Of a stretch of 64,000 nt of DNA, positions 13,230 through 45,573 are shown piece after piece (position 1 is the stretch's first letter; the number at the start of each line of letters is the position of its first letter). This DNA comes from Spirochaetota bacterium (GTDB taxonomy: Bacteria; Spirochaetota; UBA4802; UB4802). The translations under genes were made by a program, and so were the position numbers. The notes below the pieces were generated by a model, which saw nothing but the letters and a program-made list of their open reading frames with translations, searched no databases and was not told the origin of the DNA. Location of the stretch: assembly GCA_026414805.1 (NCBI GenBank), contig JAOAIH010000001.1:51335-115334 (forward strand), read 5' to 3'.

Positions 13230-14574
13230 TTAACTTCGCAATTCGGAGATTAGTTCATCTATGACTTCTTTAAAATCCATATCTTCTTCTATGGATTTTT
13301 CTATGTTATTAATAGCATTGAGTACAGTTGAGTGATCTCTGTCACCAAACTCTTTTCCTATCTCGATTGTTGTTAGTTCTGTTAATCTACGAGAAAGATA
13401 CATTGCAATAAAACGTGGCTGCACTACTTTACTTTGTCTGTTTTTTGAAATGATATCTTCAACAGTAACTCCAAATTTAGAAGCCACTTTTACCATAATA
13501 TCGTGTACGGTAATCTTTTTGTTACTGTCAACATCAAATAGATCTTTGCAATGATCTTTTGCTAATTGAACAGTTATAGGCTGATTATATATACTTGACA
13601 CCATGCTAAGCCTGACCAATGCAGCTTCAAGCGCACGTATACTTGATTTTATCCTACGAGCTATATAGTTGCATACTTCATCGGAGAGCTCAATGTTTAT
13701 TTTCTCTGCTTTATTTCGCAGAATTGCCTCTCGGGTTTCTAAGTTTGGAAGCTGGATATCAACAATCATTCCCCACTCAAATCGGGTTCTAAGCCTCTCT
13801 TCAAGTGTTGAAAGCTCTTTTGGAGGCCTATCACTGGAAATTACAATTTGTTTTTTATTATTATGTAGTGTATTAAAAGTATGGAAAAACTCTTCTTGAG
13901 TTTGCTCTTTCTTTTCAATAAACTGAATATCATCTATCAACAGGATATCCACATTCCTGTATTTAATCTTAAAGCTTGATAAGGTATTAGCTCTTATTGC
14001 CTGTATAAATTCGTTAATGAATTGCTCGCAAGGAACATACAATACGTTAAGGTATGGCCGTTCTTGAATAATCCTATGACCTATGGCCTGCATAAGGTGA
14101 GTTTTACCTAGTCCAGTGCCCCCATAAATAAACAAAGGATTATATTGTGTTGCAGGAGCTTTTGAAACAGATATTGCAGCTGCATGTGCCAACTGGTTGT
14201 TAGGACCAATGACAAAATTTTCAAAAGTATAGTTTGGATTTAATATAGTAGGAAATTGTAATGTCTCTTTTTGATCTTCATTTGGAACTAGTATAGGAGA
14301 ATTTTTTGGCTGTTCCTTAAAGCCATTACCAGTAACAAACTCACACATTATTTCTTTGCCTGTTTGTTCCTTAATGATGGAGTGAATTAGTGAGGCATAA
14401 TGGTCAGAAATATGCCGTTTTGCTACATCATCTGGAACTTTAACAACTAGGATATTTTCATTATATGCCACTGGTTCCGTATTTTTGAACCACATATTGA
14501 AAGATTGTTTATTAATATATGTTTCAACCGAATTTAATACCTTATTCCAGATAGTTACTGTTTGATCTGTCATA
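13230..14574 (-). CDS. dnaA: chromosomal replication initiator DnaA
   Basis: AAA+ Walker A GGTGLGKTHLMQAIGH and a C-terminal DnaA-box-binding HTH (HSTVLNAI). The listed ORF extends to a TTG at 14600; ATG 14574 (MTDQTVTIWNKVL...) is the more likely start. Confidence 0.93.
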
Positions 14575-14900
14575 TTAATAACCCACCTAGTTATCAACAA
14601 TTGTTAATAACTTTGTTGATATCGTAATATACGTTTAGCATGTAATGAAAAGGTTAGTAGCTCAAATCTTTTGGTGTTGATAGTATGTTGAATTGGCTCT
14701 AATAAAGCATGATTACTTTTTTTTGCAACCAATTAATACATAAAAATTATCGGGACAATAAAAAATTTTTTAATTATGGATAATATGAGTATAAATGATT
14801 AAAATCTGTGAATATTATGTGGATAAATAGAAATATATAGTTGAAAAATATGATTTTATGTGTATTATTTGTTAATAATCTATACTAAAAGGTGTAAGCC
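14575..14900. promoter_or_regulatory. candidate oriC / dnaA promoter region with DnaA boxes and an AT-rich unwinding element
   Basis: Perfect DnaA box TGTGGATAA at 14818-14826. Near-perfect boxes TATGGATAA at 14775-14783 and TTATCAACA at 14591-14599. Long A/T runs at 14750-14775. Confidence 0.5.
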
Positions 14901-15158
14901 ATGGGTGTAATAATTAAAGACATAAAGAAAAATAATAATGAAATTATAAGGGTTGAAATTTCTGAATTCCAGGGAAAAGAACTAATTAATTTAAGAATAT
15001 GGTATCAGACAATCGATGGTGGAGAAGTTGTGTATAAGCCAACACAAAAAGGTGTTGCACTTTCGGTTGAAAAATTTGATGAATTACAGGAAGCGGTCAC
15101 AAAAATAGCTGAGTATTTACATGATAAAAAACATGGAACTACTCCACATGATGTATAG
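14901..15158 (+). CDS. PC4/YdbC-like putative ssDNA-binding small protein
   Basis: 85 aa. The pattern LRIWYQT...KPTQKGVALSVEKFDEL resembles the bacterial PC4 (YdbC) family consensus (IRxW...KGIxLSxEEF). It lies directly beside the origin. Confidence 0.4.
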   Translation: MGVIIKDIKKNNNEIIRVEISEFQGKELINLRIWYQTIDGGEVVYKPTQKGVALSVEKFDELQEAVTKIAEYLHDKKHGTTPHDV

Positions 15159-16599
15159 TTTCGTGATAATACAACTTAATAATTGATTGTATTAGTAAGT
15201 ATTGTGATTTTTTTATCTGCATCTCATCATGTAGTAAATTGGGGTTTAGTACACCATTAATCATATCCATAATGCAATATTGTGCTCCTATGGGTAGCTT
15301 CTGAGTACAATTGTGAACAAGCTTTTTTGGTAGTTGTTTAAATGCTGTTGCAAGGGTAAACCATCCAAGTTCAAATAGTAAATAATATATACTATCAGAA
15401 TTAATGTATTTAGGATATAATTTGTGAAATGGCATAGAATATAATTTATTTATTTGTGACATGTGTGAAAGATAAAGTTGTATTAGAGAATATTGTGCTT
15501 CCATTGTGTCCATATAATTAAATTTATTTTTAAAATATGAATGTATACTTTGTAATCTTCTTGAAGAGATGTACAGCGATAGTTTTTGTAATAGGAATGT
15601 GTGGTTGGAAAAAGCTGAAGCGATAGTACTATCAGTACAATGTGATAATATAGTGTACAACAATCCTGAATTTTCTATTTCATTAAACCAGGTTTCAAAA
15701 TTTTTTTTCTGAAATGTGGACAGTATTGTTATAAAGTGCAGAATCTTATTAATTTTGTCTATAAAATTGCCATACTTAAAGTATTGTTTACTTCTCAGTT
15801 TTAAATAGAGAATCTCTTCAAAAGCATATATCCCTTCAATCAAATCCCGGGTCTTGATATTTTTAACTACTTGTCCAACATGCATTATATCTGATATAAG
15901 ATTGCTGGAAATGTTATATTTGATTTTTAATGCATGTTGAGGAAAAGCACGTGTTAATAGATACAGATGATAAGGAGTGAGTACATTTTCGTTCAATAAG
16001 AAATAAATTAGTTTTTGTAACTCATTGTCTTCCATTCTTTCAAGAATAATTTCAAGAGAAGGGAAAAGGTTATAGGGATCTCTAAAAAACTGCAAAAATT
16101 GTAATTCAATATCATTGATCAAACCTTGCTTTGTTAAGTCATTAGCTTTTATTCTAAAAAGCTTAAAAAATTCTAAAGGGACATAGATTGTGAAAGAATG
16201 TACATCATTATTTGTAGGATCATCATGAAAAGAAGCGGTAATGGAAACATGTGGAATTTTCAAAGATGCGTTTTCAGATGGTACTTCATCAGAAAAAGTT
16301 ACTTTTAATATTTTTTTTGTAACCATGCTTACTCGTAATGCTATGCTAAAGGTGTTGTTATGAATATATTCCTTTATTGCTAGGAAAATATTGTTATTAT
16401 CAGTGGTGATAGTTATTGGATAATGTTTTGAAGACACTTTATGAAATGAAATACTGATATTATATTTTTGTAATTGTATGTATTCTTCCTGCCATGGGGT
16501 TAAAGCAAATATATTACAGTTGCATACCCTTGCTATTGAAACATCGATATCCTGAAACAGAATCAAGAAAAGTAGATGCGAAGCTGTGTTATAAAACAT
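15139..16599 (-). CDS. hypothetical protein (486 aa) at the end of the REC-GGDEF / REC-PP2C operon
   Basis: Long ORF with typical coding composition; no motif recognised. A 25-nt gap separates it from the upstream REC-PP2C gene. Confidence 0.5.
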   Translation of the reverse strand: MFYNTASHLLFLILFQDIDVSIARVCNCNIFALTPWQEEYIQLQKYNISISFHKVSSKHYPITITTDNNNIFLAIKEYIHNNTFSIALRVSMVTKKILKVTFSDEVPSENASLKIPHVSITASFHDDPTNNDVHSFTIYVPLEFFKLFRIKANDLTKQGLINDIELQFLQFFRDPYNLFPSLEIILERMEDNELQKLIYFLLNENVLTPYHLYLLTRAFPQHALKIKYNISSNLISDIMHVGQVVKNIKTRDLIEGIYAFEEILYLKLRSKQYFKYGNFIDKINKILHFITILSTFQKKNFETWFNEIENSGLLYTILSHCTDSTIASAFSNHTFLLQKLSLYISSRRLQSIHSYFKNKFNYMDTMEAQYSLIQLYLSHMSQINKLYSMPFHKLYPKYINSDSIYYLLFELGWFTLATAFKQLPKKLVHNCTQKLPIGAQYCIMDMINGVLNPNLLHDEMQIKKSQYLLIQSIIKLYYHETIHHVE

Positions 16600-21501: not shown

Positions 21502-23388
21502 ATGATACGATATTTTGACATTATAGTCATAGGTGCAGGACATGCTGGGGCCGAAGCAGCACTGGCATCTGCACGGCGGGGTTTTGCAACACTACTTTTG
21601 ACTGGCAATCTTGATACTATATGCCAGATGAGTTGTAATCCTGCTATAGGTGGGTTGGCAAAAGGGCATCTAGTGAAAGAGATTGATGCATTAGGTGGAC
21701 AAATGGGATTGACAATAGATGAAACGGGTATTCACTATAAGATGCTCAACAAAAGTAAAGGGCCAGCAGTGTGGGCACCACGTGCACAAGCCGATAAAAA
21801 GCAATATCAACTCAGGATGAAGGAAGTTATTGAAAAACAGAAGAATTTAACATTGATACAGGATATTGTGGACGAAATTATTGTTGAAGGTGATACGGTA
21901 AAAGGAGTTCAAACCATACGAGGACAGCAACATGTCGCACAAGCAGTTATAGTGTGTACAGGAACATTTTTAAAGGGACTTATCCATATTGGCAATTATA
22001 ATGAGAGAGCAGGGAGACTGGGTGATTTTTCATCTGAGAAGCTTTCGGATTCATTGCGCGCATTGGGCTTTCCAGTAAGACGGTTAAAAACAGGGACCCC
22101 TCCACGGGTTAATGGTAATTCAATAGATTTTAGTAAATGTGAAGTGCAACATCCTGACCCTGTTCCCACACCATTTTCGTACAGGACACAATCCATTAAT
22201 AGACCACAGGTGCCCTGTTATATTACCTATACAACTGACAAGACTCATACAATTATAATGAATAACCTGCATCTATCCCCATTGTATTCAGGCAAGATTA
22301 AAGGTATAGGGCCACGATATTGTCCATCAATTGAGGATAAGGTTGTCCGTTTTTCTTCACGAAATCGCCACCAACTGTTCCTAGAACCAGAGGGATTACA
22401 CACAAATGAATACTACATAAATGGATTTTCTAGCTCATTACCTGAGGATGTACAATTAGAAATGATTAAAACTATCCCTGGCTTAGAGGAAGTGCAAGTA
22501 ATGCGTCCTGCGTATGCTGTGGAATATGACTATGTGCCACCGGTAGAGTTATATCATACATTGGAAACCAAAAGGGTCAAAGGATTATATCATGCAGGGC
22601 AAATTAATGGGACATCAGGGTATGAGGAAGCAGCTGCACAGGGAATTATTGCTGCAATAAATGCAGGTAATAAGCTATTGGGATTGCCACCTCTGGTGCT
22701 TAAACGTTCTGAAGCATATATCGGAGTGCTCATTGATGATCTGGTTACCAAAGGTGCTGATGAACCTTACAGGATGTTCACATCCCGGGCCGAGTACAGG
22801 CTGTTACTAAGGCAGGATAACGCTGATGAACGGTTAATGAAGTATGGTTATCAGATAGGCCTAATTGATAAGGAACTATATGAAAGAACCGTTGAAAAGT
22901 ATAAAAGAATACAGGAACTTACCGCTAAAATAAATAGCATGACCATTGTAATTAATGAAAAAATGAAGGATATTCTCAGAGATAAGAATATAGAGATAGA
23001 AGAACAACACCAGATCCTAGCAGGAAAACTGTTAAAGCGCCCTGAAATAACCATGCATGATGTCATGTCTTTTATTGTTGAAAGCGATAGTACCCTTATA
23101 ATGAATGAGCAGGAAGCTAAGATTGTTGAGATGAATATCAAGTATGAAGGATATATCAGGAAAGATATGGAACGAGTAAAAAAGTTGGAGCAGATGGAAA
23201 ACAAAAAGATTCCAGAAACTATTGATTACGATAGTATCATTGGGCTTAAAAATGAAGCACGCGAAAAACTGAAAAAAATAAAGCCTCAAACAATAGGGCA
23301 AGCGTTGCGCATTTCAGGAGTTGATCCTTCAGATATATCGATAGTCTTAGTACATATAGAATCGTTAAGCAGAAAAAAAAGTAATTAA
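21502..23388 (+). CDS. mnmG: tRNA uridine-5-carboxymethylaminomethyl modification enzyme MnmG (GidA)
   Basis: 628 aa. FAD-binding [15 protein letters not shown] at the N-terminus, GidA-like throughout. Confidence 0.95.
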
Positions 23389-23424
23389 ATAAACTGAAAT
23401 TAGTTAAATATTTTACAAAAAATG

Positions 23425-23442
23425 ATGTTCCACGTGGAACAT
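23425..23442. promoter_or_regulatory. parS-like 18-bp perfect palindrome (ParB-binding centromere-like site), copy 1, intergenic
   Basis: ATGTTCCACGTGGAACAT. The core TGTTCCACGTGGAACA differs from the Bacillus-type parS consensus TGTTNCACGTGAAACA only at the symmetric A/G positions. Confidence 0.5.
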
Positions 23443-23546
23443 TATGTCGCATTATCATATTCAATTATACACTATACCAACTAAATTATTGAATATAATT
23501 ATTTTATTTATGCTTGAAGATATGGAAATTTTCAAATAATATCGTT

Positions 23547-23555
23547 TGGTATAAT
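23547..23555 (+). promoter_or_regulatory. candidate extended -10 promoter (TGGTATAAT) inside the long gidA-gidB intergenic region
   Basis: Exact TGnTATAAT motif ~270 nt upstream of the rsmG start. No good -35, which an extended -10 does not require. Confidence 0.25.
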
Positions 23556-23823
23556 ATTATCTTCATGAATGGACTGGCTTGATTAGTGGCTATAAATATT
23601 GGCGATTAAAATATATAAGTGATCCTTATAGCTTGATAATGAAAGTATTAAAGTGTGCAATTTAGTAAGGATTTATATACTGCATTCTGAAAGAATGTAA
23701 TAGATGAGTAAATATATTTATAAATTACATTAAAACAACATCTTATTGTTGCAATTTATTTGTGATGTGAATATGATCATTACTTTATTACAAATTAAGA
23801 TATAATTTATTTAATTTAAATAT

Positions 23824-24636
23824 ATGAAAGGTACCGTTATGCTGGCATTATCAGTAGAAATAGAAGAAAAACTAAAAAACTTTGCCTATTTGATATTTGA
23901 ATATAATAAAATAATAAATATTACCGGGTTAAAAGATGTCGATTCAATTTATAATCAGCTTATTGTTGAAAGTATTTTGCCACTTAAAAATATCAATGTT
24001 CCACGTGGAACATCCTTTATTGACATAGGCACAGGAGCGGGAATTCCAGGCATTCCATTGTTATTATATTTTGGCACGAACATCAATGGTGTATTGGTTG
24101 ATTCAAATAATAAAAAGATTAAATTTATTGAGAAAGCAATAGGTGTTCTTGGTCTTGCCCACAGTACTATGGTTATACAGGGCAGAGTAGAGGAAATGGC
24201 ACATGAAAATCAATATAGGGACAAGTTTGATTTTGCAGTAGCCAGGGCTTTTGCGCATCCGTATATGGCACTTGAATATGGATTGCCCTTTGTCAAAATA
24301 GCAGGTTGGTTGTATATATATTACGCTTCAAAGTTATATTCTACAAATTATAAAGAAAATGCAATAATAAGCAAAAACAATAGCAGAATGACGAATAATA
24401 TTAATACATTGCACGATCATAAAGTAGCTAATTTATCACAAAGAAATGTAAAAGCACTTGTAGAGTATTTGGAAAAGCATTCCCATGCTCTATGTGGACA
24501 TGTGGCAACTTTTGAAGAAGCTATGAATAAGGGCATTGATGAAGGTTTTCTTTTTATCAAGGATGGGCCAACACCGTTACAATATCCAAGAAAGTATGCT
24601 ATAGTCAAAAGGGAGGTTGATAAGATAAGAGGGTAA
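23824..24636 (+). CDS. rsmG: 16S rRNA (guanine527-N7)-methyltransferase RsmG (GidB), with a ~50-aa internal insertion
   Basis: SAM-binding motif IDIGTGAGIPGIPL, a C-terminal YPRKYAIVK tail typical of RsmG, and the conserved position after gidA. 270 aa against the usual ~210-240. Confidence 0.8.
   Translation: MKGTVMLALSVEIEEKLKNFAYLIFEYNKIINITGLKDVDSIYNQLIVESILPLKNINVPRGTSFIDIGTGAGIPGIPLLLYFGTNINGVLVDSNNKKIKFIEKAIGVLGLAHSTMVIQGRVEEMAHENQYRDKFDFAVARAFAHPYMALEYGLPFVKIAGWLYIYYASKLYSTNYKENAIISKNNSRMTNNINTLHDHKVANLSQRNVKALVEYLEKHSHALCGHVATFEEAMNKGIDEGFLFIKDGPTPLQYPRKYAIVKREVDKIRG
23997..24014. promoter_or_regulatory. parS-like 18-bp perfect palindrome, copy 2, inside rsmG coding sequence
   Basis: Identical ATGTTCCACGTGGAACAT, 572 bp from copy 1. 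It encodes NVPRGTSF in rsmG. Confidence 0.5.
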
Positions 24637-24644: not shown

Positions 24645-25205
24645 ATGAAGAAGATAAAACGTCTATCAATGTATATTATTTGGTATGTACTTGCTCTGTA
24701 TTTGAGTGCGGTGTATGCAGAAAACCAGAGTAGCCTGCATAGTATAGTACTAAAAGATGAAACATTGATTGTACCTGGCACAGGTGCTTCAGGCATAGTA
24801 ATCGGTATGCCTGAACGTGAGGTCGTATTGATAAAGGGCAAGCCTTTTGAAAAAACAAAAAGTGTTGTCCATGAATTTTTTAAAGATGTATTAAAAATAA
24901 ATTCTCCATCACAGCTTCACTTTAATTATCTATATATATACAAGAGCCCATCAGCATTTATTGGAATATATAAAGAAAAAGTATCATTTATTGTAGTATG
25001 GAATTCCACTGGCATATTGATTGAAGGAATACCACTATCTAAGGGTTTACAGGCAATAGTATATCATTATGGGAATGAGGGCATGTTGAGTATTTCTGGG
25101 GCAGATGGGAAGATATGCATATATTCTTCAAAAGGAATAGCCTTTATTGATGATAAGAATGATAATAGCATTGATGGCATTATAATTTTTAAAGGTAATA
25201 TGTAA
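24645..25205 (+). CDS. secreted hypothetical protein
   Basis: Signal peptide (MKKIKRLSMYIIWYVLALYLSAVYA); no other motif. Confidence 0.45.
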   Translation: MKKIKRLSMYIIWYVLALYLSAVYAENQSSLHSIVLKDETLIVPGTGASGIVIGMPEREVVLIKGKPFEKTKSVVHEFFKDVLKINSPSQLHFNYLYIYKSPSAFIGIYKEKVSFIVVWNSTGILIEGIPLSKGLQAIVYHYGNEGMLSISGADGKICIYSSKGIAFIDDKNDNSIDGIIIFKGNM

Positions 25206-25214: not shown

Positions 25215-26987
25215 TTATGCAATTGAATTGAAATGTTCCATTGTATCGTTAATATGATGAGCAACAATATCACTGATATGGTATTCATGATAAATAATAT
25301 CATCAATTGAGTCCATTAATAGTTTCCTTTTATGCTCATTTGTTTCTTCCCTTAGTGTTAGGGATAAATTTTTTAACATGTTTTTATTAGATGAATTAAT
25401 TATTTTTATAGGTAATTTTTCAAGATTCCCGCGTAACACTTTTACAGTAAAAAATTGAGTATCATAGATATATTGAAGAAGGCGTGAGTTTAAGATTGCA
25501 GTAAGAATATCCGGATCCAAATCTGGGCTAAGAGGGATAAATCCATTAACATTATTCAAAGTATAAAATCCATGAGGGTCTACAGCAAACGTAAGATGCT
25601 TGCCAATAAATTTGTATACTATTTTATTGGGAGTTAGGTAACAACTCTTTTCGGCAACCTGTTGTAATGTAGCCACATTGTACTTGAAATAATGACCACT
25701 AAAAGTAATTCGAAATTTTTCGACATCTTTGCCTACAATTATTGGGTCTGGATGCAAACTATCTCTGGTATTGCTTATGTGGTGTTCATTGTTTCCAGTA
25801 ACAATTCCAAGAAAAAATTTTACTCTGTCTTTTAGTGTAATGTATGAAAGGGACTGAATATGTTCTAATAAGGCAACAGCTTTTCGTGAATAATTAATTG
25901 AAAATATATTTTGATATGATTCACTATACATATGTTGTGGTATTAGGTGAGCGGTATTTTTAGCAAGATTTATTAAAGATTTCCCGTGTTTTATATGTAC
26001 AATATTTTTCTTACGAACATCTTTGCACGGCTCTTTTTGAATTGTTAATGATATCGCCGGTGCATATACTCCTTTAAAACAATCTCCCCATTGTACTATT
26101 TCCTTAATCACCGAAAGCGATAGTACTAGTTCTCTTGATTTCTGATGCGCTTTGATATTGAGATATGCTTCTGGAATAAGAAATGATAATATCCCATGAT
26201 TTCGTAATAAAGACAATGACTTTTCAATAAATAGTGTAAAACTGTTAATACCACTTAAAGCTGAAATATAATGCTGTTTGAAATATTGTTTTTGCTCTTT
26301 AGTAAAATATGCACCCCATGGTGGATTACCAATAATAACATCAAATAGCATAGAATTGTATTGTCTATTAAAAAGATCGCCGGATGTAAGGGTGTCTTTA
26401 TGAAATATGTTAGTTTTTCTTCCTGATATCTTTTGTATATTCCACTGAGCAATCATACAGGCTATAGGGTCTATATCATAACCATACAGATTGGTATGAC
26501 AAATAATATTGGTAGATTCATTTTCAGGTATGCCAAGGTGTTTGTATAATGTTAATAAATATTGAAAGATATATATTAAAAACTGGCCTGAACCACATGC
26601 AGGATCTAAAATCCTCATAGTATATGGATTATCATAGTGCTGAAGTGCATTGTGTACCATATACTGAACAATTGCAGGTGGTGTAAAATACTGTCCTCTC
26701 TTTTTTTTGTCATCTGTATCTTTTAGCTGTTGATAAATATAGCCAGCAATATCGCCATATTGTATTATGTCCCATTTTTGGATTACCTTTAAAAGATCAT
26801 TGCATGCTAATTTTCCTTGTTCAGATAATGGTAATGGAATTTCTCTATTAAAAAGTAAATATTCAAGTATTGTTTGAATGAAATTGGATGACTCTTGGTT
26901 TGCAATAATATCTTTTTTTAGTTGCCCTATGCAGTAATCGATATAATGAATGTTATGAGTAATATAAGAATCAAATTTGTTTTTCAT
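25215..26987 (-). CDS. N6-adenine DNA methyltransferase (gamma-class, Eco57I/TaqI-like) with C-terminal target-recognition region; no adjacent restriction endonuclease
   Basis: Motif I LDPACGSGQFLI, motif IV NPPW (IIGNPPWGAYF), preceded by QYFTPPAIV. 590 aa. Confidence 0.75.
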   Translation of the reverse strand: MKNKFDSYITHNIHYIDYCIGQLKKDIIANQESSNFIQTILEYLLFNREIPLPLSEQGKLACNDLLKVIQKWDIIQYGDIAGYIYQQLKDTDDKKKRGQYFTPPAIVQYMVHNALQHYDNPYTMRILDPACGSGQFLIYIFQYLLTLYKHLGIPENESTNIICHTNLYGYDIDPIACMIAQWNIQKISGRKTNIFHKDTLTSGDLFNRQYNSMLFDVIIGNPPWGAYFTKEQKQYFKQHYISALSGINSFTLFIEKSLSLLRNHGILSFLIPEAYLNIKAHQKSRELVLSLSVIKEIVQWGDCFKGVYAPAISLTIQKEPCKDVRKKNIVHIKHGKSLINLAKNTAHLIPQHMYSESYQNIFSINYSRKAVALLEHIQSLSYITLKDRVKFFLGIVTGNNEHHISNTRDSLHPDPIIVGKDVEKFRITFSGHYFKYNVATLQQVAEKSCYLTPNKIVYKFIGKHLTFAVDPHGFYTLNNVNGFIPLSPDLDPDILTAILNSRLLQYIYDTQFFTVKVLRGNLEKLPIKIINSSNKNMLKNLSLTLREETNEHKRKLLMDSIDDIIYHEYHISDIVAHHINDTMEHFNSIA

Positions 26988-27080: not shown

Positions 27081-27431
27081 ATGCATGAATTATCAATTAT
27101 GTCTAATGTTCTTGATATCGTAATACAGCATGCATCACGAAATGGTGCAACGAAGGTAACAAAAATTCATCTTCTGGTAGGGGAACTATCTGATTATATT
27201 CCAGAGTGGATGCAAACATATTTTGATTTTGTCAGTAAAGATACTATTGCAGAAAAAGCAGAACTTGTTGTTGAAACGGTGAAGGCATCGCTTGCATGTG
27301 ATGATTGTGGGAATACATTCAATTTCAATAAAAATGATTGGCAATTCAGTTGCCCACAATGTTCTTCACCAAATGTGACCATTATTTCAGGGAGGGAACT
27401 TACAGTAAAAAGCATAGAAATAGAGGGATAA
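27081..27431 (+). CDS. hypA: hydrogenase nickel-incorporation protein HypA
   Basis: N-terminal MHE Ni-binding motif. Zn finger CDDCGN...CPQCSS. 116 aa, with the typical HypA layout. Confidence 0.8.
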   Translation: MHELSIMSNVLDIVIQHASRNGATKVTKIHLLVGELSDYIPEWMQTYFDFVSKDTIAEKAELVVETVKASLACDDCGNTFNFNKNDWQFSCPQCSSPNVTIISGRELTVKSIEIEG

Positions 27432-31050: not shown

Positions 31051-31734
31051 TTACTTTTTATACATTATAAAAAGATAATTAAATCCTCTTAAGAAGAAAT
31101 TACCTTCTTGGGCAGCTTTGTGGTACTTGCCCATCTGCAATGTTTTGTTATGGCGCACTACTGCAATAATATCAATGGCAGAAAAATATTTAAGCAGTAG
31201 TAAAAACAGATGGAAACCAATGGGAACAAACCCGTCTTTTTTATTAAAGTAATCGCACACATACAATCCCATATACCGCTTTGGTTTTAATATTCTATGA
31301 ATCTCCTTAATTACTTCCTCCATGGCTATGAAATAATCTTGTTCTGTGGCCTTTAATTTGCCTATACATAATGCTTCATTGGAGTAGGTGATGTTGTCGC
31401 CGTAGGGAGGGTCAATAAAGACAAAGTCTGCTTTGTTATTTTCAAGGGGCAATTTCCGTGCATCTGCTTTTATTATATCTTTTCGGTAGGGATGAATATC
31501 ATAGCCCAGACATTTTCTGCCAATATCTTTGCAGACGTCAATGGTGGTGCCGCTGCCACACATAGGATCGACTACAAGATCGCCTTTATTGGTATAGCGC
31601 ATAAGTAAATTCCAGATAACATATGATGGTGTAGCGCCAGGGTAGTTCTGATCCCCCTGCTGTGTATTACCATAATGCTGTGAAGGGTAATTCCATAGCG
31701 TTGTGGTTTGAATAGATAAAGGTGGCTTGAGCAT
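31051..31734 (-). CDS. small DPPY-motif amino-methyltransferase (N6/N4 DNA MTase-like; motif I precedes motif IV)
   Basis: YPGATPSYVIWNLL...GDLVVDPMCGSGTT resembles the motif-I half of N6_N4 methylases. FIDPPYG (motif IV) lies 40 aa downstream. 227 aa. Confidence 0.55.
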   Translation of the reverse strand: MLKPPLSIQTTTLWNYPSQHYGNTQQGDQNYPGATPSYVIWNLLMRYTNKGDLVVDPMCGSGTTIDVCKDIGRKCLGYDIHPYRKDIIKADARKLPLENNKADFVFIDPPYGDNITYSNEALCIGKLKATEQDYFIAMEEVIKEIHRILKPKRYMGLYVCDYFNKKDGFVPIGFHLFLLLLKYFSAIDIIAVVRHNKTLQMGKYHKAAQEGNFFLRGFNYLFIMYKK

Positions 31735-35855: not shown

Positions 35856-38800
35856 TTAAAATAACAAGCTAAACTGGAAACCCAGTTCGTATGATATGAT
35901 CTCACGGTTAATACCATTTGTTTCCCTATTTCTGAATCGTTCCAGAATCCCACGCGCTATGCATTGTCCTTGTACATTTTTATGCATGTTTATTGTCAGG
36001 CTGGATGAGATACTGTAGAGATCATAGGGTTCAGGTGAAGTAAAATAGGTATAGTTATACCGGTTTAGCGTCATAAGATATTCTAACCTGAATATAGGCA
36101 GCGCTGTCAATGTGTACCAGATACTGAAAAAATCATATATAAAAGGGACATCCGTTTCATATATAGTTGAAAACGTATACCCTTTATCAATGTTGGTATA
36201 TGGTGGTTGCATAGTCATATTATAGTAATAGATATCATCCTTTGCTGATCGCTTGTCTTCTTCAATTGGTATGAATTCATACCATTGCTGTGAGCGGTAG
36301 CTTATACCAAATTTTGTAGCTATGCTTGACCTATCCCACTTGAATGTTGTTCCAATACTTGGTGTGTGCTCATTTATCAGTATATTAGATGTGATTCGTA
36401 AATATTTATTAAACTGGTATTCAAATAGTGCTGTTGCTGAATGATATGGGAGGTTGGGCCTGTTTGGCCTGAAAAAGCCAAATGAAAATATCTTCATTAA
36501 ATCGCAAGACAATGATGAGACTAGTGTATAGGTTACTACCTGCTGGGATGGTGAGTTAACACCATTGCGGTCTGATACTGAGTGGAGGCTGCTATTTACA
36601 AAAATTATAAATGGAGATAGCTCCCAGCTGATTGCAAATGATACATTGTCTAAAAGCCTGAAGTAGTTATTGTATTCTGAAAATGTGGTCTGGTTAACTA
36701 CTGGTTGAGAAGATAACGTATATGTTACAAAATCACGCCCTCTGGCATAATTTGATCTTCCCTTAAAGAAATACCATGGAGGATATTGTAGTAAATTATA
36801 TATTGAATTGGCAGATGCATTGCAGTAACGACCAGCACCAAATTTTTCTTCATAAAAGTTGATGGATTCACCTTCATAAGGGACGTTAATTTCATTGAGT
36901 GTACTACTCCTGGTATAATTAATTGAACAATTTTTTATGCTGGGAAAGTATGATTGGAGATTGATGGGCAATGAAAGTGTATTGGATAAAAATCCTTGTG
37001 TGGATCGGGTACGTTTGAAACCGTAGTGTAGCCAGTTATCATAAGGCAGTAGGTCTTTAAATTGATTTTCAAAATACGAAAATTCATACGTTATTGTAGG
37101 GTTTATAAATTTATAGCGCTGCAGTCCCAAGGCAAGTGAGTATTTTTTTAACCGCTCAATGAACCGGATTGTGTCATTATAAAGAAAGGGGATATGGAAG
37201 CCAGAGCTTATCTCATTTGATAAAACTGGATTAATATCAGTAACTGTACCTGAGTAGGTAAGGAATTCTTCAGATACATGTTGAATTCTGGGAGAAATAA
37301 AAAAATGGGTGAATTGATAATTGATATTTATTGAACATGATTGGCGCTGTTTTTTTTGTGTATTGTATCCTGATGTTAATGATTGGCTGTATTCTTTAAA
37401 TATGTCTTCCTTAAATGAAGCATCCAGAAATATCCTGTACGATAAATCTCCCCCTACTATATCATGCAATGATTGTTGTAATCCTACTGTTGCTTGATGT
37501 GTTGTTTTACTTGTATCATTATCAAATGTATTAATGTCCTGATAATACGCCTGTCTGTTAGTGAAGTTTTCATAATTGTACAGTACATTAAGCTGTGGAA
37601 TAGCTGTATCTGGTGGTGACAGAGTTGATGAAAAGTGGAATTGTTGTATATTGGTTGTTCCCCGTTTTGTAGGGCTAACCTGTTCATTGAGACTATCAGT
37701 CCTTGATTGCTCCTGTATGTAATCAAATGATGTGTGCCAGTATGGAAGAACACTGCAAGTTAATGTTGCCTGATTGTAGTCTTCGGATATATCATTATAT
37801 GGCTGCCCTATCGTATAAAAATTATTTCCGTGTTTTTTCTTTACATATGATACGGTAATATCGGATAATACAGGTGTACCTGATTCAGTGCGGGTAATAG
37901 GTTTTGTTATTTTTACTGTACCTTCATACCATGATGCAGTGTCTTCAAGTGTCATAGGGTCACTGGTGTAAATATCATTAAGCCAGAATTCACCATTTGT
38001 GGGAGTGGTATTTTCAACTGAAACTGTGATGGCAGTTATCCGTTTGAGATCAGGTTCTCCTTCCTTTTTTTTAAACTGTACGTTTGTATTCTTGCATTGG
38101 AGTGATAATACAATATCTTCCCAGGTATGCAGCAGTTGAGGGGTGTAGGAATATTCCAGGTAATCACTGTCAGATGAATGTATACGAAATGTAAGAATAT
38201 CCCCTGGTGTAAAACTTCGCATGTTAATCCAGCTATGTATGTTGCGATAAAAACGCAAATCCATGGGTTTATGAAATTTTCGCTTGATAGTAGCTGAACT
38301 AATCGCACTATATGTTACTTTGAGAGCAGATTCCATAGTTTGGGTGAGTTCTTTTTTGGATTTATCGCCATAGAGACTTGTATACACGTCGCTTTTTATG
38401 CGCGCAAATGATTCCTGTGCATAGTCTGTATCATTAAATGAATCAATGAGTGTGAGTTTGACTTTATCTGTGTTACTGCCACTTATCCCATCAATGCTAT
38501 CAACCTGCCAGTGCATGGTAACAAAACGTATTGTATCAATAAGGATTGTACCTGAAGTTGCTGTTGCTTTGTGTAATATCAATCGAATTGAATATATTTT
38601 TTTCAATATATCATAAAACGCATCTGGATTTGTAGCATATAATGAGGGGTTGTTTTTATTCACATAGATACGGATGCTTTTCCATGAGGTATCTGCCAAA
38701 TTTACTGAGAGAGGAGATGGTAGCCCAGGGATTCGTATGTACTGTTCTCCAGTATCAAGCATACCGTTGTCATTTAAGTCTTCGGTATTGAGTACTCCAT

Positions 38801-41495
38801 CGCCAATGGTGGTGGATGATAAACCTGGGCCTGACCCTACTGTAGTTGGGAAAGATGGATTATTAAAAATATAACCTGTATCTTCGGATATATTCCGGTT
38901 AGTATCATAATCTAAGAATCCATTACGGTTGCTATCTTCACTGTCAAGGATCCCATCCCCGTCGCTATCTTCGTTTATACTGCCAATATCGCAATAAAGG
39001 TCAATGGTTCCTGTGCCACCAGTACTGCGATACCATATCTCTACATATTCAATTGTAGAAAGATCAACTGGTTTGGGCGATAATGTACGGGTAACAATGG
39101 AGATATACTCACCTGTGCTGAAGTCAAAATTTAACCCTAAAGACCGCTGGGATTGTTCTGTTTGTATGGATTCCGCTATATGCCCTGTGGCAACATTGTA
39201 CGGACCAGGCTTTTTTGAATAGGGAACATTAATAGGGGTAAAGTTTAATCCGTACAGTGTTTGGGGATTATTAATATCACGGTAGAATTTATAATAAATT
39301 CGCGCACGATCGTTCTGTGTAATACCGGCTGGCAATGAACCAAGTATCCAGTCTTTCTCGGACATTGACAGCGTAAGACCTGAATAGATTGATTCAAAAT
39401 CATCAATAAGGCCTTTGCCAAAAGTGTTGATGCTGTGATAGCTTTTTGCAAATTCTGCATACCCTTTGAACATTGCAGGCACTGATATATCAGAATTGGT
39501 TATGTTTGATGCTAAGGCTGATATATCATGAGGGCTGAACTCTACTGTGCTATCGGCTTCAATAACAGTTGTTTGCGTTGGTTCGTTCCCTAACAATGGA
39601 ACAGTGGATGCCATGCCCTGTGTGGTATACAGGATTGTACCACCTACATTAATGTTTTTGTTGAGAGCATAATCAGCACGCATGCCACCGATAAACTGCT
39701 GTGCCTGCCCTTCAAAGGGAAGATACTGGTAGCTTACTTCAATATCGGTTTCAGGTGTTATGACTGGATTGCCAGAATTGGTGAACTGGAAAAAACCTGA
39801 TGTAGGGTCAACGCTGTATAGACTTTCTGCAATCTGTATGCCATTAATTTTTACACGTACTGTGTCAGGGATTATGTTGACGTGTTTAAGCTGAAACCCA
39901 CGTGACTGGCTGTATCCTGCAATGCCAATTTTATACTGTGAAACTGTAAACGCCTGCTGATTTTGTGATTCAGTATAGATAATTTTTTGTGATTGTGCAG
40001 GCAATAGACCTTTAAAGGGTTCGCGCAGCTTAAAAGTGATAGTACCAGAATTATAATCCACATTAAAATTGCCTAATTTTTGTATATCAGATTGAGACAT
40101 TGGGAAAAGGTTATTGAAAAAAGATATTTTTACATCTTCAGCACGTATATTTTGTAAGCCTGTAGAGTATATCCCGCGAATTTCATAGATGTCTAAATTT
40201 AGTGTACCGTCATTATTAGTGTCCTCACCGGGATCAAGGGTACCATTAAAATTGACATCTTCGTGAATTGACGGGCCATATTTAATAAACACGCATATTT
40301 TGCCTGGAAATTGTGGGTGTGTAGTGATTGCAGAAGGGTCAGAGGTTTGAGTGCTTCCACCATTACGCGTATATACTGCAAATATTTTTGCTTGAGGTTT
40401 AAAAGATTTTAATAGGGCGATAGTACCTGTGGAAAAGTTTATGGTGTAATCAGAACCCTGTTGCAATCTTCTGAAATATCCCAAAATAATAGAAGGATCA
40501 TCCCATTTGCGAAGTTCCAGCAATCCACTTTTACTTTGTGTGATAGCTTCATCAGCATACAGTTCAAAACCAGAGCTATCGATACCCACAGGATACGGTG
40601 TGTAGGTAGAAGGGATAGCAGGTGTTGAAGTCCAGGTAATGGTTGTATAATAATTTGTTGGTGGAGTATCACTATTATCATAACGCTTGAAAGGTTCCAA
40701 CTGATAGTAGGTGGCTTTGGTATACTGGTATTCCTGCAATGTAATGCTTGCGCTTGAGAAGTTTCCCTTAAATCGTTCTATTTCGCTGACTCCCTTTGCA
40801 ACGGAGCCAAATGCTTTTAATTGCAAGTTACCCTTTTTAATAGTAAAATCAATTCCCATACCTTTTGATGAGGTATCATCGTATACGGCATATTTTGATT
40901 TGTTCACTTTAATGGTTATATCACCAGCATTGATTTCACGCAACACTTCATCATCTTCTACAGCTTTATATTGCATAATATAGGTGTTGGTACGCTGCTG
41001 GCTGTCATGGTCTATGTAAAGTGTGAGTCGTCGCCCTGCTTTCCCTTCGATATGCAACTGCATAGTCTGTTCGGGACTAAATCCTTGTTGAATTAATGTT
41101 GAAGTGGGTTTATCCTCATCAAATCGCTTATACTTATTGTTAGTAAAAAAAGATTTTCCATATTTAAGGTTAAGGTTCATTGATCCATAGGAGAGGATAT
41201 CATAAGGCTCTTCTTGTGATAAGGTTTCAGTGCCGGGAATGGTATATTTGTAATGAGGATCAATGATATATTTAGTCCAATCACCCTGATTATATTCAAA
41301 GGGTGATTGTGTGTCATCTCCAACTGCTGGCACTGTTTCAACAGGGACATCTGTTTTTTTTTCTATTACTTTGTATGTTGAAATGTATTCATCTATTAAT
41401 TGTCTAAAAGAGGAAGTTGGTTGTTGGGAAATGACTATGGCAGTTGCTGATGTCAGCAGTACACCAATAACGATGATATTGGATAGTGATTTCAT
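35856..41495 (-). CDS. giant (1879 aa) secreted outer-membrane beta-barrel-type protein with thrombospondin-type-3-like Ca-binding repeats; SprA/Sov-like (candidate T9SS translocon) at low confidence
   Basis: Signal peptide. Repeated DxDxDG/DxNxNG motifs (DSDGDGILDSEDSNRNGFLDYDTNRN, DLNDNGMLDTGE, DPGEDTNNDGTLNLD). The C-terminal residues ...FQFSLLF end in Phe, as outer-membrane beta-barrels do. The size is comparable to SprA. Confidence 0.6.
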   Translation of the reverse strand: MKSLSNIIVIGVLLTSATAIVISQQPTSSFRQLIDEYISTYKVIEKKTDVPVETVPAVGDDTQSPFEYNQGDWTKYIIDPHYKYTIPGTETLSQEEPYDILSYGSMNLNLKYGKSFFTNNKYKRFDEDKPTSTLIQQGFSPEQTMQLHIEGKAGRRLTLYIDHDSQQRTNTYIMQYKAVEDDEVLREINAGDITIKVNKSKYAVYDDTSSKGMGIDFTIKKGNLQLKAFGSVAKGVSEIERFKGNFSSASITLQEYQYTKATYYQLEPFKRYDNSDTPPTNYYTTITWTSTPAIPSTYTPYPVGIDSSGFELYADEAITQSKSGLLELRKWDDPSIILGYFRRLQQGSDYTINFSTGTIALLKSFKPQAKIFAVYTRNGGSTQTSDPSAITTHPQFPGKICVFIKYGPSIHEDVNFNGTLDPGEDTNNDGTLNLDIYEIRGIYSTGLQNIRAEDVKISFFNNLFPMSQSDIQKLGNFNVDYNSGTITFKLREPFKGLLPAQSQKIIYTESQNQQAFTVSQYKIGIAGYSQSRGFQLKHVNIIPDTVRVKINGIQIAESLYSVDPTSGFFQFTNSGNPVITPETDIEVSYQYLPFEGQAQQFIGGMRADYALNKNINVGGTILYTTQGMASTVPLLGNEPTQTTVIEADSTVEFSPHDISALASNITNSDISVPAMFKGYAEFAKSYHSINTFGKGLIDDFESIYSGLTLSMSEKDWILGSLPAGITQNDRARIYYKFYRDINNPQTLYGLNFTPINVPYSKKPGPYNVATGHIAESIQTEQSQRSLGLNFDFSTGEYISIVTRTLSPKPVDLSTIEYVEIWYRSTGGTGTIDLYCDIGSINEDSDGDGILDSEDSNRNGFLDYDTNRNISEDTGYIFNNPSFPTTVGSGPGLSSTTIGDGVLNTEDLNDNGMLDTGEQYIRIPGLPSPLSVNLADTSWKSIRIYVNKNNPSLYATNPDAFYDILKKIYSIRLILHKATATSGTILIDTIRFVTMHWQVDSIDGISGSNTDKVKLTLIDSFNDTDYAQESFARIKSDVYTSLYGDKSKKELTQTMESALKVTYSAISSATIKRKFHKPMDLRFYRNIHSWINMRSFTPGDILTFRIHSSDSDYLEYSYTPQLLHTWEDIVLSLQCKNTNVQFKKKEGEPDLKRITAITVSVENTTPTNGEFWLNDIYTSDPMTLEDTASWYEGTVKITKPITRTESGTPVLSDITVSYVKKKHGNNFYTIGQPYNDISEDYNQATLTCSVLPYWHTSFDYIQEQSRTDSLNEQVSPTKRGTTNIQQFHFSSTLSPPDTAIPQLNVLYNYENFTNRQAYYQDINTFDNDTSKTTHQATVGLQQSLHDIVGGDLSYRIFLDASFKEDIFKEYSQSLTSGYNTQKKQRQSCSININYQFTHFFISPRIQHVSEEFLTYSGTVTDINPVLSNEISSGFHIPFLYNDTIRFIERLKKYSLALGLQRYKFINPTITYEFSYFENQFKDLLPYDNWLHYGFKRTRSTQGFLSNTLSLPINLQSYFPSIKNCSINYTRSSTLNEINVPYEGESINFYEEKFGAGRYCNASANSIYNLLQYPPWYFFKGRSNYARGRDFVTYTLSSQPVVNQTTFSEYNNYFRLLDNVSFAISWELSPFIIFVNSSLHSVSDRNGVNSPSQQVVTYTLVSSLSCDLMKIFSFGFFRPNRPNLPYHSATALFEYQFNKYLRITSNILINEHTPSIGTTFKWDRSSIATKFGISYRSQQWYEFIPIEEDKRSAKDDIYYYNMTMQPPYTNIDKGYTFSTIYETDVPFIYDFFSIWYTLTALPIFRLEYLMTLNRYNYTYFTSPEPYDLYSISSSLTINMHKNVQGQCIARGILERFRNRETNGINREIISYELGFQFSLLF

Positions 41496-43266: not shown

Positions 43267-43809
43267 ATGAAATCTGAAAATAAAGACAAGCTTTTAGCTG
43301 TATTGTTTTATACACTGGTAGCTGCCTATTCTTACCTGGTATTGACAGTGGGTTCTGGAAACGATATTTTATTCTGGTCGTATGAAGAATTAATTTTTGG
43401 GATTGTAATTAGTATCATTTTGGCATCTGTCACCTACTGGCTTATACCAATAAAAATTACCGGAAAATTACTGAATCCGTTTTTTTATGTGGGGATAGTA
43501 TTATATTTCATTGGCCCTTTTTTTGTAGCGCTTTTGATAGCTAATCTGGAAGTACTTTACAGAATTATTACTGGGAAAATTAAACCCGCTATTGTAAAAG
43601 TTGATCCGGAAATTAACGATGAGATGGGTGTGTATCTACTGGCAAATTCAATAACGCTATCGCCTGGAACACTCACAATAGGTGTTGATCCCGAAAAACG
43701 AAAATTATTCATTCACTGTTTGTACTGGGATAAAGCAAAGGAATATTCTGCTGTGCCAAAAGATGTTGCAGGTTTTCTGCACTATTTTTTAAAAAAGCTT
43801 TTTACATGA
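43267..43809 (+). CDS. Mrp/Mnh antiporter subunit E-like (MbhA-like), first gene of the hydrogenase cluster
   Basis: LANSITLSPGTLTIGVDPEKRKLFIHCL matches the MnhE signature LANxITLTPGT. Confidence 0.65.
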   Translation: MKSENKDKLLAVLFYTLVAAYSYLVLTVGSGNDILFWSYEELIFGIVISIILASVTYWLIPIKITGKLLNPFFYVGIVLYFIGPFFVALLIANLEVLYRIITGKIKPAIVKVDPEINDEMGVYLLANSITLSPGTLTIGVDPEKRKLFIHCLYWDKAKEYSAVPKDVAGFLHYFLKKLFT

Positions 43810-43822
43810 AACAGGCGTATAT

Positions 43823-44092
43823 ATGTATGATTATAACTCTATATTTTTGATATCTGCATTTCTCTGTATACTATATGTATGCATTATCGTTATACGGATT
43901 GCATTCAGCCATAACGTCCCTGAACGGATTGTAGCGCTTGATACAATTAATACATTAATTATCGTTATCATGATTGTTTTAGGTGCTGCTCAAAAGAAGG
44001 CCTTGTATATTGATATTGGTATAGTCTATGGGATTATCTCTTTTATTGGTACATTATATATTGCCCGATATCTCATAGATGAGAGGAAATGA
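43823..44092 (+). CDS. Mrp/Mnh subunit F-like small membrane protein (MbhB-like)
   Basis: 89 aa, 3 TM; its position after the MnhE-like gene follows the cluster order. Confidence 0.5.
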   Translation: MYDYNSIFLISAFLCILYVCIIVIRIAFSHNVPERIVALDTINTLIIVIMIVLGAAQKKALYIDIGIVYGIISFIGTLYIARYLIDERK

Positions 44093-44500
44093 ATGGACGC
44101 TTTGATTTTGGTTTGTATGGCAATTGGTTTATTTGTTAATGGTATGAGCATTATTGGGCTAATGCGCTTTCCTGATATATATACCCGCCTGCACGCAGCT
44201 ACAAAAACTACAACATTTGGAAGTATTTTTGTGGTTTTAGCGATAGTTATTAAAAATATATTTTATTATGACCCCACCAGTCTCACAATTATTATTCATA
44301 GTATTGTTGCATTGCTGGTTATTATATTTACTAATCCAATCAGCGCTCATGCAATTGCACGAGCATCATTACTGTCGGGCATTAAGCCTGTGGGCGTTAT
44401 AATTAATGAGTTTGACTATAAATCCCAGATGAAAACCGCTGATGAGCTTGAATTGGAAAAGGTGAGTGAAGGAATCCCGGATGAAGGTGGTATGGTATGA
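44093..44500 (+). CDS. Mrp/Mnh subunit G-like (MbhC-like)
   Basis: RFPDIYTRLHAATKTTTFGSIFVV matches the MnhG signature. Confidence 0.65.
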   Translation: MDALILVCMAIGLFVNGMSIIGLMRFPDIYTRLHAATKTTTFGSIFVVLAIVIKNIFYYDPTSLTIIIHSIVALLVIIFTNPISAHAIARASLLSGIKPVGVIINEFDYKSQMKTADELELEKVSEGIPDEGGMV

Positions 44501-44739
44501 TGTATTATTTTTTTCTGGTTATTTCAATAGCACTAGTAATAACTGCACTGCTTTCAATATATTTTCGTGATCTTCTTGCAGCAATAGTGAGCTATTCGGT
44601 CTTTTCATTAGTACTCACTGTACTGTATTTTCTCCTTGATGCGCCTGATGTAGCTATTGCTGAAGCTGGAATTGGTGCAGCACTGACCACCTGTATTTTT
44701 GTTATCGCAATTAGGATGACACGGAGAAGGGAAGAATGA
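44497..44739 (+). CDS. small membrane subunit (MbhD-like)
   Basis: 80 aa, 2-3 TM; overlapping start and stop within the operon. Confidence 0.45.
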   Translation: MMYYFFLVISIALVITALLSIYFRDLLAAIVSYSVFSLVLTVLYFLLDAPDVAIAEAGIGAALTTCIFVIAIRMTRRREE

Positions 44740-45569
44740 GGCTTTTAAGTGTTGTAGCTATTGTCATTATATTTGGGTTTTTATTTGTTGGGATACTTAA
44801 CCTTCATCCAGTGGGGCAGGCTATTGGGAATCCGGATGTATTAAAGGAAAGGCCAGAGTATGGCATTGATGTCCAGGGCGTTACCACTATGGATGATTAT
44901 TTTTTACGAAACGGACAGGTAGAAACAAAATCAAACAATATTGTGGCAAGTGTAGTATTTGATTATAGAGGATTTGATACATTGGGGGAAGCAACAGTAT
45001 TATTCGTTGTGGTAAGCAGCATTTCAATGCTATTCTTTACATTCCTTAAGAGCAAAAGTATTGTATCAGCGGGTGTACCTCCCGCAGGGCAGTTCCCTAA
45101 AATTGAATCACGGATAATAACATTTGGAGCTTTTATCATGTATATCATGATATTAAGTTTTGGTGTGTATCTAGTGGTACATGGACATCTTTCCCCTGGG
45201 GGTGGTTTCCAGGGTGGCTCGGTTATGGCTTCTGCTACTGCGCTTCTGCTTATAAGTTTTTTAATTACCAGGCATATGCAACGCACTCGTAAAATATTTT
45301 CATTCTTTGAATCATTTGGATTAACAATTTTTATTGGTATCGGTTTTACTGGAATTGGAATATCATTTTTATATAATTTTCTAGCGCACAGTGGCGCTGC
45401 ATTTGGAAGGCTTATCCCATTTGGGCCCAATCAGGGTTATCTTATTTCCGCTGGAATATTGCCATGGCTGTCACTGGCTGTGGGTATTGAAGTATTTTTT
45501 GGATTAAGTCTTATACTTGTGACGTTATTCCATGCATCGGGAGTGAAAAATAATTCTTTGCAACGGTAA
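44736..45569 (+). CDS. Mrp/Mnh subunit B-like membrane protein (MbhE/F-like)
   Basis: IVASVVFDYRGFDTLGEATVLF matches the MnhB motif NIVxAIlxDyRGxDTLGE. Confidence 0.6.
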   Translation: MRLLSVVAIVIIFGFLFVGILNLHPVGQAIGNPDVLKERPEYGIDVQGVTTMDDYFLRNGQVETKSNNIVASVVFDYRGFDTLGEATVLFVVVSSISMLFFTFLKSKSIVSAGVPPAGQFPKIESRIITFGAFIMYIMILSFGVYLVVHGHLSPGGGFQGGSVMASATALLLISFLITRHMQRTRKIFSFFESFGLTIFIGIGFTGIGISFLYNFLAHSGAAFGRLIPFGPNQGYLISAGILPWLSLAVGIEVFFGLSLILVTLFHASGVKNNSLQR

Positions 45570-45573
45570 TGCT

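What the first reader, a model, noticed from the sequence alone, without database searches (positions are those of the whole stretch)
23425..24014. Two identical 18-bp perfect palindromes matching the parS centromere consensus flank the start of rsmG
ATGTTCCACGTGGAACAT occurs at 23425-23442 (gidA-gidB intergenic) and again at 23997-24014 (inside rsmG, encoding NVPRGTSF). An exact 18-mer appearing twice in 600 bp is not chance. The core TGTTCCACGTGGAACA is one symmetric substitution away from the Firmicute-type parS TGTTNCACGTGAAACA bound by ParB/Spo0J. Such sites cluster near oriC and often lie inside genes. No parAB is in the window, so the cognate ParB must be encoded elsewhere or the sites serve another dimeric HTH protein.
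Basis: partly seen in the sequence, partly recalled or inferred. Interest (0 to 1): 0.6.

Follow-up and report, generated by a model that had tools for sequence, protein, structure and literature searches.

The report
Two origin-proximal parS centromere sites
The two identical palindromes are textbook chromosome-partition (parS) sites about 9 kb from the replication origin of an uncultured Leptospira-like spirochaete: real and strongly conserved, but an ordinary, already well-known kind of element.

Summary
About 0.02 matches are expected by chance even with 3 mismatches allowed.

The 16-bp core TGTTCCACGTGGAACA is letter for letter the high-affinity parS2/parS3 site of Pseudomonas aeruginosa. 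The sites lie 8.8-9.4 kb from dnaA and the GC-skew minimum. One sits 37 bp after the mnmG stop. The other lies inside rsmG, in the codons for N-V-P-R-G-T.

In related Spirochaetota genomes (MnmG identity 63-89%) the 14-bp core is perfect in 33 of 34 copies of the first site and 29 of 33 copies of the second, at the same syntenic places. Inside rsmG, four four-fold-degenerate third codon positions are invariant (0 bits). Third positions across rsmG otherwise carry about 1.7-1.9 bits, so selection acts on the DNA, not on the protein.

A terminator, a second origin and a neighbouring DNA-binding gene were tested and rejected. No ParA or ParB is encoded in the window, or within 10 kb of mnmG in any spirochaete relative. 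The cognate ParB therefore could not be shown and must be encoded elsewhere.

Verdict: genuine canonical parS sites, a known kind of element, of low interest.

The parts
23425..23442 (.). parS-1: an 18-bp perfect palindrome (16-bp core 23426-23441) in the spacer, 37 bp after the mnmG stop
   Evidence: The 14-bp core is perfect in 33 of 34 syntenic copies in Spirochaetota relatives. It is the only conserved block in an otherwise unalignable spacer.
23996..24013 (.). parS-2: the identical 18-bp palindrome (core 23997-24012) inside rsmG, at codons 58-63 (N-V-P-R-G-T)
   Evidence: The 14-bp core is perfect in 29 of 33 relatives. Third-position entropy is 0 bits at GTT CCA CGT GGA, against a mean of 1.71 bits across rsmG. 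The VPRGT peptide is absent from RsmG of other phyla.
21502..23388 (+). mnmG (gidA), the upstream anchor gene
   Evidence: TIGR00136, 881 bits.
23824..24636 (+). rsmG (gidB), the host gene of parS-2
   Evidence: TIGR00138, 109 bits, and PF02527.
23443..23823 (.). A+T-rich, fast-evolving spacer between parS-1 and the rsmG start; it is the reason the two sites are 571 bp apart here rather than about 205 bp as in most relatives
   Evidence: The mnmG-rsmG interval has 23% G+C. Nothing aligns between close relatives except the parS-1 block. There is no DnaA box and no credible ORF.
13230..15138 (-). Context: dnaA (13230-14600) and the 538-bp upstream spacer with DnaA boxes, which is the probable oriC; it sets the distance to parS at about 9 kb
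   Evidence: TIGR00362, 536 bits. The cumulative GC-skew minimum is at 13.8-14.0 kb. DnaA boxes are at 14775, 14818 (perfect) and 15029.

Best explanation
The two palindromes are chromosomal parS centromere sites. By analogy with characterised systems, each 16-bp palindrome is bound by a dimer of the canonical ParB/Spo0J protein, which here must be encoded outside the 64-kb window. parS binding triggers CTP-dependent closure of ParB into a clamp that slides out over the flanking kilobases. This builds a partition complex beside oriC, about 9 kb away. ParA then segregates the complex, and it loads SMC onto the origin region. Two redundant high-affinity sites are kept. One of them is written into the rsmG reading frame, in a loop just upstream of the SAM-binding motif, and fixes the peptide VPRGT. 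Shown here: sequence identity to validated parS sites, origin proximity, deep syntenic conservation, and selection on the DNA itself. Inferred: ParB binding, spreading, and the role in segregation.
For: Exactly two copies, against 0.02 expected. The core is identical to P. aeruginosa parS2/parS3, the sites ParB binds most tightly, any one of which suffices for segregation when close to oriC (PMC4368675). It also equals the P. putida consensus and differs by one base from the M. xanthus consensus (PMC7022226 Table 1). dnaA, dnaN, recF, gyrB and gyrA, and the GC-skew minimum at about 14 kb, place oriC 8.8-9.4 kb from the sites. About 33 Spirochaetota genomes have two sites at the same places: the mnmG stop/rsmG junction, and inside rsmG. 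The 14-bp core is perfect in 33 of 34 and 29 of 33 copies. Inside rsmG the third positions of four four-fold-degenerate codons have 0 bits of entropy, while the invariant Gly, Pro and Asp codons of the adjacent SAM motif have 0.9-2.0 bits. VPRGT is confined to this lineage. In the Firmicute loci fetched in the same scan, TGTTTCACGTGAAACA sites lie next to rsmG with soj-spo0J adjacent, the classical arrangement. Chromosomal ParB is known in Leptospira chromosome I, Treponema, Brachyspira and Borrelia.
Against: No ParB or ParA gene lies in the window, or within 10 kb either side of mnmG in any spirochaete relative. I could not retrieve a ParB from this lineage. No binding data exist. Only 64 kb of the genome was visible, so genome-wide clustering of the motif around oriC is untested.
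Confidence: 0.9

Rival explanations
1. The palindromes are operators for a different dimeric DNA-binding protein, for example a lineage-specific regulator of rsmG, or a replacement centromere protein in the way ParZ partly replaces ParB in Borrelia. They would resemble parS only in sequence.
For: parAB is not next to the sites in this lineage. Both sites bracket the rsmG 5' end. In Borrelia a non-ParB centromere-binding protein controls ParA.
Against: The sequence is identical, not merely similar, to validated ParB sites. The same motif family sits at mnmG/rsmG in other phyla beside parAB. No candidate regulator is adjacent: orf186 downstream is a signal-peptide protein with no Pfam match. Even in Borrelia, ParB still binds parS.
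Confidence: 0.04
2. The sites are relics. ParB has been lost in this lineage and the palindromes persist for another reason or by inertia.
For: No ParB could be shown.
Against: Relics would decay. Instead the core is invariant across genomes whose synonymous sites are saturated.
Confidence: 0.03
3. The palindromes act at the RNA level as hairpins: an intrinsic terminator after mnmG, or an attenuator in rsmG.
For: The consensus scan flags both as terminator-like. The RNA hairpins fold at -11.9 and -8.4 kcal/mol.
Against: The T-run is not conserved. Only 6% of copies (+ strand) and 22% (- strand) in relatives have 6 or more T in the next 10 nt. The rare changes in relatives are single substitutions that break the palindrome, not compensatory pairs. 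In most relatives site 1 overlaps the mnmG stop or the rsmG start, and site 2 is in the middle of a coding region.
Confidence: 0.02
4. Coincidence or protein-coding constraint: the rsmG copy is conserved only because RsmG needs VPRGT, and the intergenic copy is a local duplication of it.
For: VPRGT is nearly invariant in the lineage.
Against: Synonymous third positions are frozen, whereas invariant residues nearby vary freely at third positions. Other phyla have variable residues at that place. The non-coding copy is equally conserved.
Confidence: 0.01

Closest known systems
Pseudomonas aeruginosa parS2/parS3 (and the P. putida parS consensus)
   Same: Identical 16-bp perfect palindrome TGTTCCACGTGGAACA. 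Several redundant copies lie within about 16 kb of oriC, in the region that holds gidA-gidB.
   Different: In Pseudomonas, parAB lies in the gidAB-parAB operon close to the sites. Here parAB is absent from the 23 kb to the left and the 40 kb to the right of the sites.
Bacillus subtilis parS (TGTTNCACGTGAAACA), bound by Spo0J
   Same: Same motif family, one base different, origin-proximal. One B. subtilis site lies inside a gene, spo0J (my own knowledge). The Firmicute loci fetched here show such sites next to rsmG-soj-spo0J.
   Different: A G instead of an A at position 12 makes the site here perfectly symmetric. There is no adjacent soj-spo0J or noc.
Borrelia burgdorferi parS/ParB with ParZ
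   Same: Spirochaete chromosome with an oriC-proximal parS bound by ParB.
   Different: Borrelia has a single parS within its par locus, and ParZ controls ParA. Nothing here indicates a ParZ-like system.

Membership tests
Chromosomal parS (ParB/Spo0J-binding centromere) | 16-bp inverted repeat matching tGTTnCACGTGnAACa | tested here: met
   Both copies are TGTTCCACGTGGAACA, one mismatch from TGTTNCACGTGAAACA. They are identical to P. aeruginosa parS2/3.
Chromosomal parS (ParB/Spo0J-binding centromere) | Location in the origin-proximal domain | tested here: met
   8.8-9.4 kb from the dnaA 5' end; GC-skew minimum at 13.8-14.0 kb.
Chromosomal parS (ParB/Spo0J-binding centromere) | Conservation as a DNA element across related genomes, independent of coding | tested here: met
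   Perfect 14-mers in 33 of 34 and 29 of 33 copies. Zero entropy at four four-fold-degenerate sites.
Chromosomal parS (ParB/Spo0J-binding centromere) | Motif enriched near oriC and rare elsewhere in the genome | tested here: inconclusive
   Only the two sites occur in the 64-kb window and in each roughly 22-kb relative locus. The rest of the genome was not available.
Chromosomal parS (ParB/Spo0J-binding centromere) | A cognate ParB (PF02195 plus the HTH domain) encoded in the same genome | not testable with these tools
   Absent from the window and from 10 kb either side of mnmG in relatives. The source genome is not on record. Searches with Spo0J returned only Bacillus proteins or plasmid ParBs.
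Chromosomal parS (ParB/Spo0J-binding centromere) | Specific ParB binding and spreading (EMSA, ChIP-seq) | not testable with these tools
   Experimental.
Intrinsic (rho-independent) terminator | G+C-rich hairpin followed by a conserved U-tract at the end of a transcription unit | tested here: not met
   The U-tract is not conserved in relatives. Site 2 lies in the middle of a coding region. No compensatory changes were seen.
Replication origin (DnaA-box cluster) in the mnmG-rsmG spacer | A cluster of DnaA boxes with an A+T-rich unwinding element | tested here: not met
   No TTATCCACA-like box (up to 1 mismatch) in 23389-23823. The skew minimum is at dnaA.

The most novel reading that the evidence does not exclude
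In this order-level Leptospirales-like lineage the parS pair stayed at the mnmG-rsmG junction while parAB moved at least tens of kilobases away. The sites might therefore have a second job, such as ParB-dependent control of rsmG transcription from sites flanking its 5' end. Alternatively, they might be read by a protein other than canonical ParB.
Probability: 0.06. Interest if true: 0.45.

Novelty: already known. Interest (0 to 1): 0.12.

Why it matters
The finding marks the origin-proximal centromere of an uncultured spirochaete chromosome and supports placing oriC at dnaA. It is also a clean example of a protein-binding DNA site overriding codon choice inside a housekeeping gene: it fixes a VPRGT peptide in RsmG across an entire lineage. 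It opens no new question. The element, its sequence, its position beside gidA/gidB and its occurrence inside genes are all established features of ParABS systems.

Tried and rejected
1. Finding the source genome through exact-protein look-ups of RsmG (two start codons) and MnmG: nothing on record.

2. Finding a ParB of this lineage.
- tblastn of Spo0J and Soj against the window and all 80 loci hit only Firmicute loci plus one weak Soj match in a Planctomycetia locus.
- The large protein search with Spo0J listed only Bacillus proteins. It did confirm that my remembered query is 100% identical to B. subtilis Spo0J.
- The plasmid search gave only a plasmid ParB in Leptospira noguchii.

3. The paper by Livny et al. 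2007 (PMC2168934) is not held.

4. A second origin in the mnmG-rsmG spacer: no DnaA boxes.

5. A hidden gene or RNA in the spacer: only short, non-conserved ORFs; no Rfam match in the window except one tRNA; no similarity among close relatives beyond the parS-1 block.

6. orf186, downstream of rsmG, as a parS-binding partner: it has a signal peptide, no Pfam or NCBIfam match and no sign of a DNA-binding domain.

7. Terminator function: rejected.

8. Enrichment of half-sites (GTTCCAC) elsewhere in the window: 4 outside the full sites, against about 3.6 matches expected in the whole window.

Full report
**Observation.** The 18-mer ATGTTCCACGTGGAACAT occurs exactly twice in the 64-kb window, at 23425-23442 and 23996-24013. 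Allowing three mismatches adds no further match, and shuffles predict 0.02 matches, so the repetition is not chance. Each 16-bp core, TGTTCCACGTGGAACA, differs from TGTTNCACGTGAAACA at one position, and that change makes it a perfect palindrome.

**Surroundings.**
- The minus strand carries gyrA, gyrB, a DUF721 gene, recF, dnaN and dnaA (13230-14600).
- GC skew changes sign there, and the cumulative minimum is at 13.8-14.0 kb.
- The 538-bp spacer upstream of dnaA holds one perfect and two one-mismatch DnaA boxes. The replication origin is therefore at about 14-15 kb, and the palindromes lie 8.8-9.4 kb from it.
- mnmG (gidA, 21502-23388) and rsmG (gidB, 23824-24636) are securely identified. Copy 1 lies 37 bp after the mnmG stop, and copy 2 occupies rsmG codons 58-63.
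- No ORF of 100 aa or more in the window has a ParA or ParB domain.
- tblastn with B. subtilis Spo0J and Soj finds nothing in the window. The same queries hit soj-spo0J strongly in the Firmicute loci fetched alongside, so the queries work.

**Organism and relatives.** The best MnmG relatives (82-89% identity) are uncultured Spirochaetota MAGs labelled Leptospira, Leptospirales or Spirochaetia. About thirty more Spirochaetota MAGs follow at 63-72%. Gene order from dnaA through mnmG, rsmG, orf186, a methyltransferase, hypA and moaB is largely shared.

**Conservation.** Nearly every spirochaete locus long enough to show both positions has two sites at the same places. One is at the mnmG stop/rsmG start junction, and the other is about 205 bp further on, inside rsmG. 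The 14-bp core GTTCCACGTGGAAC is perfect in 33 of 34 copies of site 1 and 29 of 33 copies of site 2. The outer T and A are less strict. No other parS-like sequence (up to 2 mismatches) occurs in those roughly 22-kb loci.

In the window's own clade the two sites are further apart: 571 bp here and 866-1277 bp in L002, L003, L004 and L032. An A+T-rich spacer has grown between site 1 and the rsmG start. That spacer does not align between close relatives, except for the parS block plus about 10 nt (TATGTCRCAT).

**Is the rsmG copy conserved as DNA or as protein?**
- A codon alignment of 32 rsmG genes settles this. The third positions of GTT, CCA, CGT and GGA, all four-fold degenerate, have zero entropy.
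- Third positions across 215 rsmG columns average 1.71 bits (median 1.85).
- The invariant Asp, Gly and Pro codons of the adjacent SAM-binding motif carry 0.9-2.0 bits at their third positions.
- The VPRGT peptide is found only in this lineage. RsmG of Firmicutes and of a Sphaerochaetaceae MAG has variable residues and gaps there.
- The DNA palindrome is therefore the selected object, and the peptide is its by-product.

**Identity.**
- The 16-mer is exactly P. aeruginosa parS2/parS3. These are the sites ParB binds with the highest affinity in vitro, and any one of them is sufficient for segregation provided it is close to oriC (PMC4368675).
- It is also the P. putida consensus. M. xanthus uses TGTTCCACGTGGAACG (PMC7022226 Table 1).
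- In the Firmicute loci retrieved by the same scan, TGTTTCACGTGAAACA sites lie beside rsmG with soj-spo0J adjacent. Several Verrucomicrobiota loci carry TGTTCCACGTGGAACA-type sites in or next to mnmG. The association of parS with mnmG and rsmG is thus widespread.
- Chromosomal ParB is reported for Leptospira chromosome I, Treponema and Brachyspira, and ParB binds an oriC-proximal parS in Borrelia.

**Mechanism.** This part is inferred from established ParABS biology, which is my own knowledge of the CTP-clamp model. ParB dimers nucleate on each palindrome. CTP binding closes them into clamps that slide over the neighbouring DNA. The resulting complex next to oriC is moved by ParA and recruits SMC. 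Two sites give redundancy, as in Pseudomonas.

**Rivals.**
- Terminator or attenuator: the T-run is not conserved (6% and 22% of copies), the rare substitutions in relatives break the palindrome rather than compensate, and site 2 lies in the middle of a gene.
- Second origin in the spacer: there are no DnaA boxes.
- Neighbouring partner protein: orf186 has a signal peptide and matches no family.
- Coding constraint or chance: refuted.
- A non-ParB binder, or a relic of a lost ParB, cannot be formally excluded, because no ParB of this lineage could be retrieved. The invariance of the site argues against a relic, and its identity to validated parS sites argues against a different binder.

**What remains open.** parAB lies more than 23 kb to the left and more than 40 kb to the right of the sites, and more than 10 kb from mnmG in every spirochaete relative. 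The classical gidA-gidB-parA-parB block has therefore been broken in this lineage while parS stayed put. The genome-wide distribution of the motif could not be examined.

**Verdict.** These are genuine, strongly selected, origin-proximal parS sites. The kind of element, the exact sequence, the genomic neighbourhood and the occurrence inside genes are all already known. Confidence is 0.9 and interest is low.

Noticed in passing
window 23443-23823; L002 11950-12776; L003 11942-12616; L004 11966-12852; L032 11957-13042: The spacer between parS-1 and the rsmG start has expanded and turns over quickly in the window's close clade. The mnmG-rsmG interval is 435 bp here and about 730-1150 bp in close relatives, whereas the two genes nearly abut in more distant relatives. 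Nothing aligns except parS-1 plus a 10-nt extension, TATGTCRCAT. L004's spacer contains an ORF fragment with an 'SKPPSSD' motif that reminded me of IS66-type transposases (from memory, not tested), which would suggest insertion and decay.
   Followed up: partly
window 23422-23484 and relatives' site 1: In many distant relatives parS-1 overlaps the last codons of mnmG or the first codons of rsmG; the ATG of ATGTTCCACGTGGAACAT could be the rsmG start, giving MFHVEH. In those genomes both sites may therefore lie in coding sequence. In the window the corresponding short ORF (MMFHVEHYVALSYSIIHYTN) looks like a remnant.
   Followed up: partly
window 23824-24636 and 24645-25205: RsmG (270 aa, longer than the 183-184-position RsmG/GidB family models, which stop aligning at about residue 200) and the downstream signal-peptide protein orf186 evolve much faster than their neighbours. 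They are 53-58% and 52-61% identical to homologues in genomes where MnmG is 88-89% identical. orf186 matches no family, yet it follows rsmG across the lineage, in the slot where parA-parB sits in other bacteria.
   Followed up: partly
window 25215-26987 (-) and 31051-31734 (-): Two DNA methyltransferase genes lie near the origin and keep their position across the lineage. One is a 590-aa Eco57I/PglX-like N6-adenine methyltransferase and the other a 227-aa CcrM-like or N4/N6 enzyme. No obvious restriction partner is present, so they may be orphan methyltransferases.
   Followed up: no
window 14901-15158 (+): An 85-aa ORF with a PC4 (transcriptional coactivator p15, single-stranded-DNA-binding) domain lies inside the dnaA-upstream spacer taken to be oriC (PF02229, E = 4.7e-14).
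   Followed up: no
window 15139-16599 (-): A 486-aa ORF directly beside the putative origin has no Pfam or NCBIfam match. It keeps its position in relatives but is only 21-61% identical to their copies.
   Followed up: no
window 35856-41495 (-): A 1879-aa ORF has no Pfam match at all.
   Followed up: no
window 43267-51453 (+), plus hypA at 27081-27431: A gene cluster resembles a membrane-bound, Mrp-linked group-4 [NiFe] hydrogenase. It encodes MnhE, MnhG and MnhB/MbhE-like proteins, NuoK-like and NuoL/M-like subunits, the 20-kDa, 30-kDa and 49-kDa/NiFe large subunits, a NuoH-like subunit and a 2x[4Fe-4S] ferredoxin subunit.
   Followed up: no
L036, L037, L043, L047, L050, L051, L057, L059, L068, L069, L071, L074: Verrucomicrobiota and Vicinamibacteria loci carry TGTTCCACGTGGAACA-type sites inside or just after mnmG, with no parAB in the stretch fetched. 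The mnmG/rsmG neighbourhood may therefore be a recurrent home for parS in several phyla, independently of parAB.
   Followed up: partly
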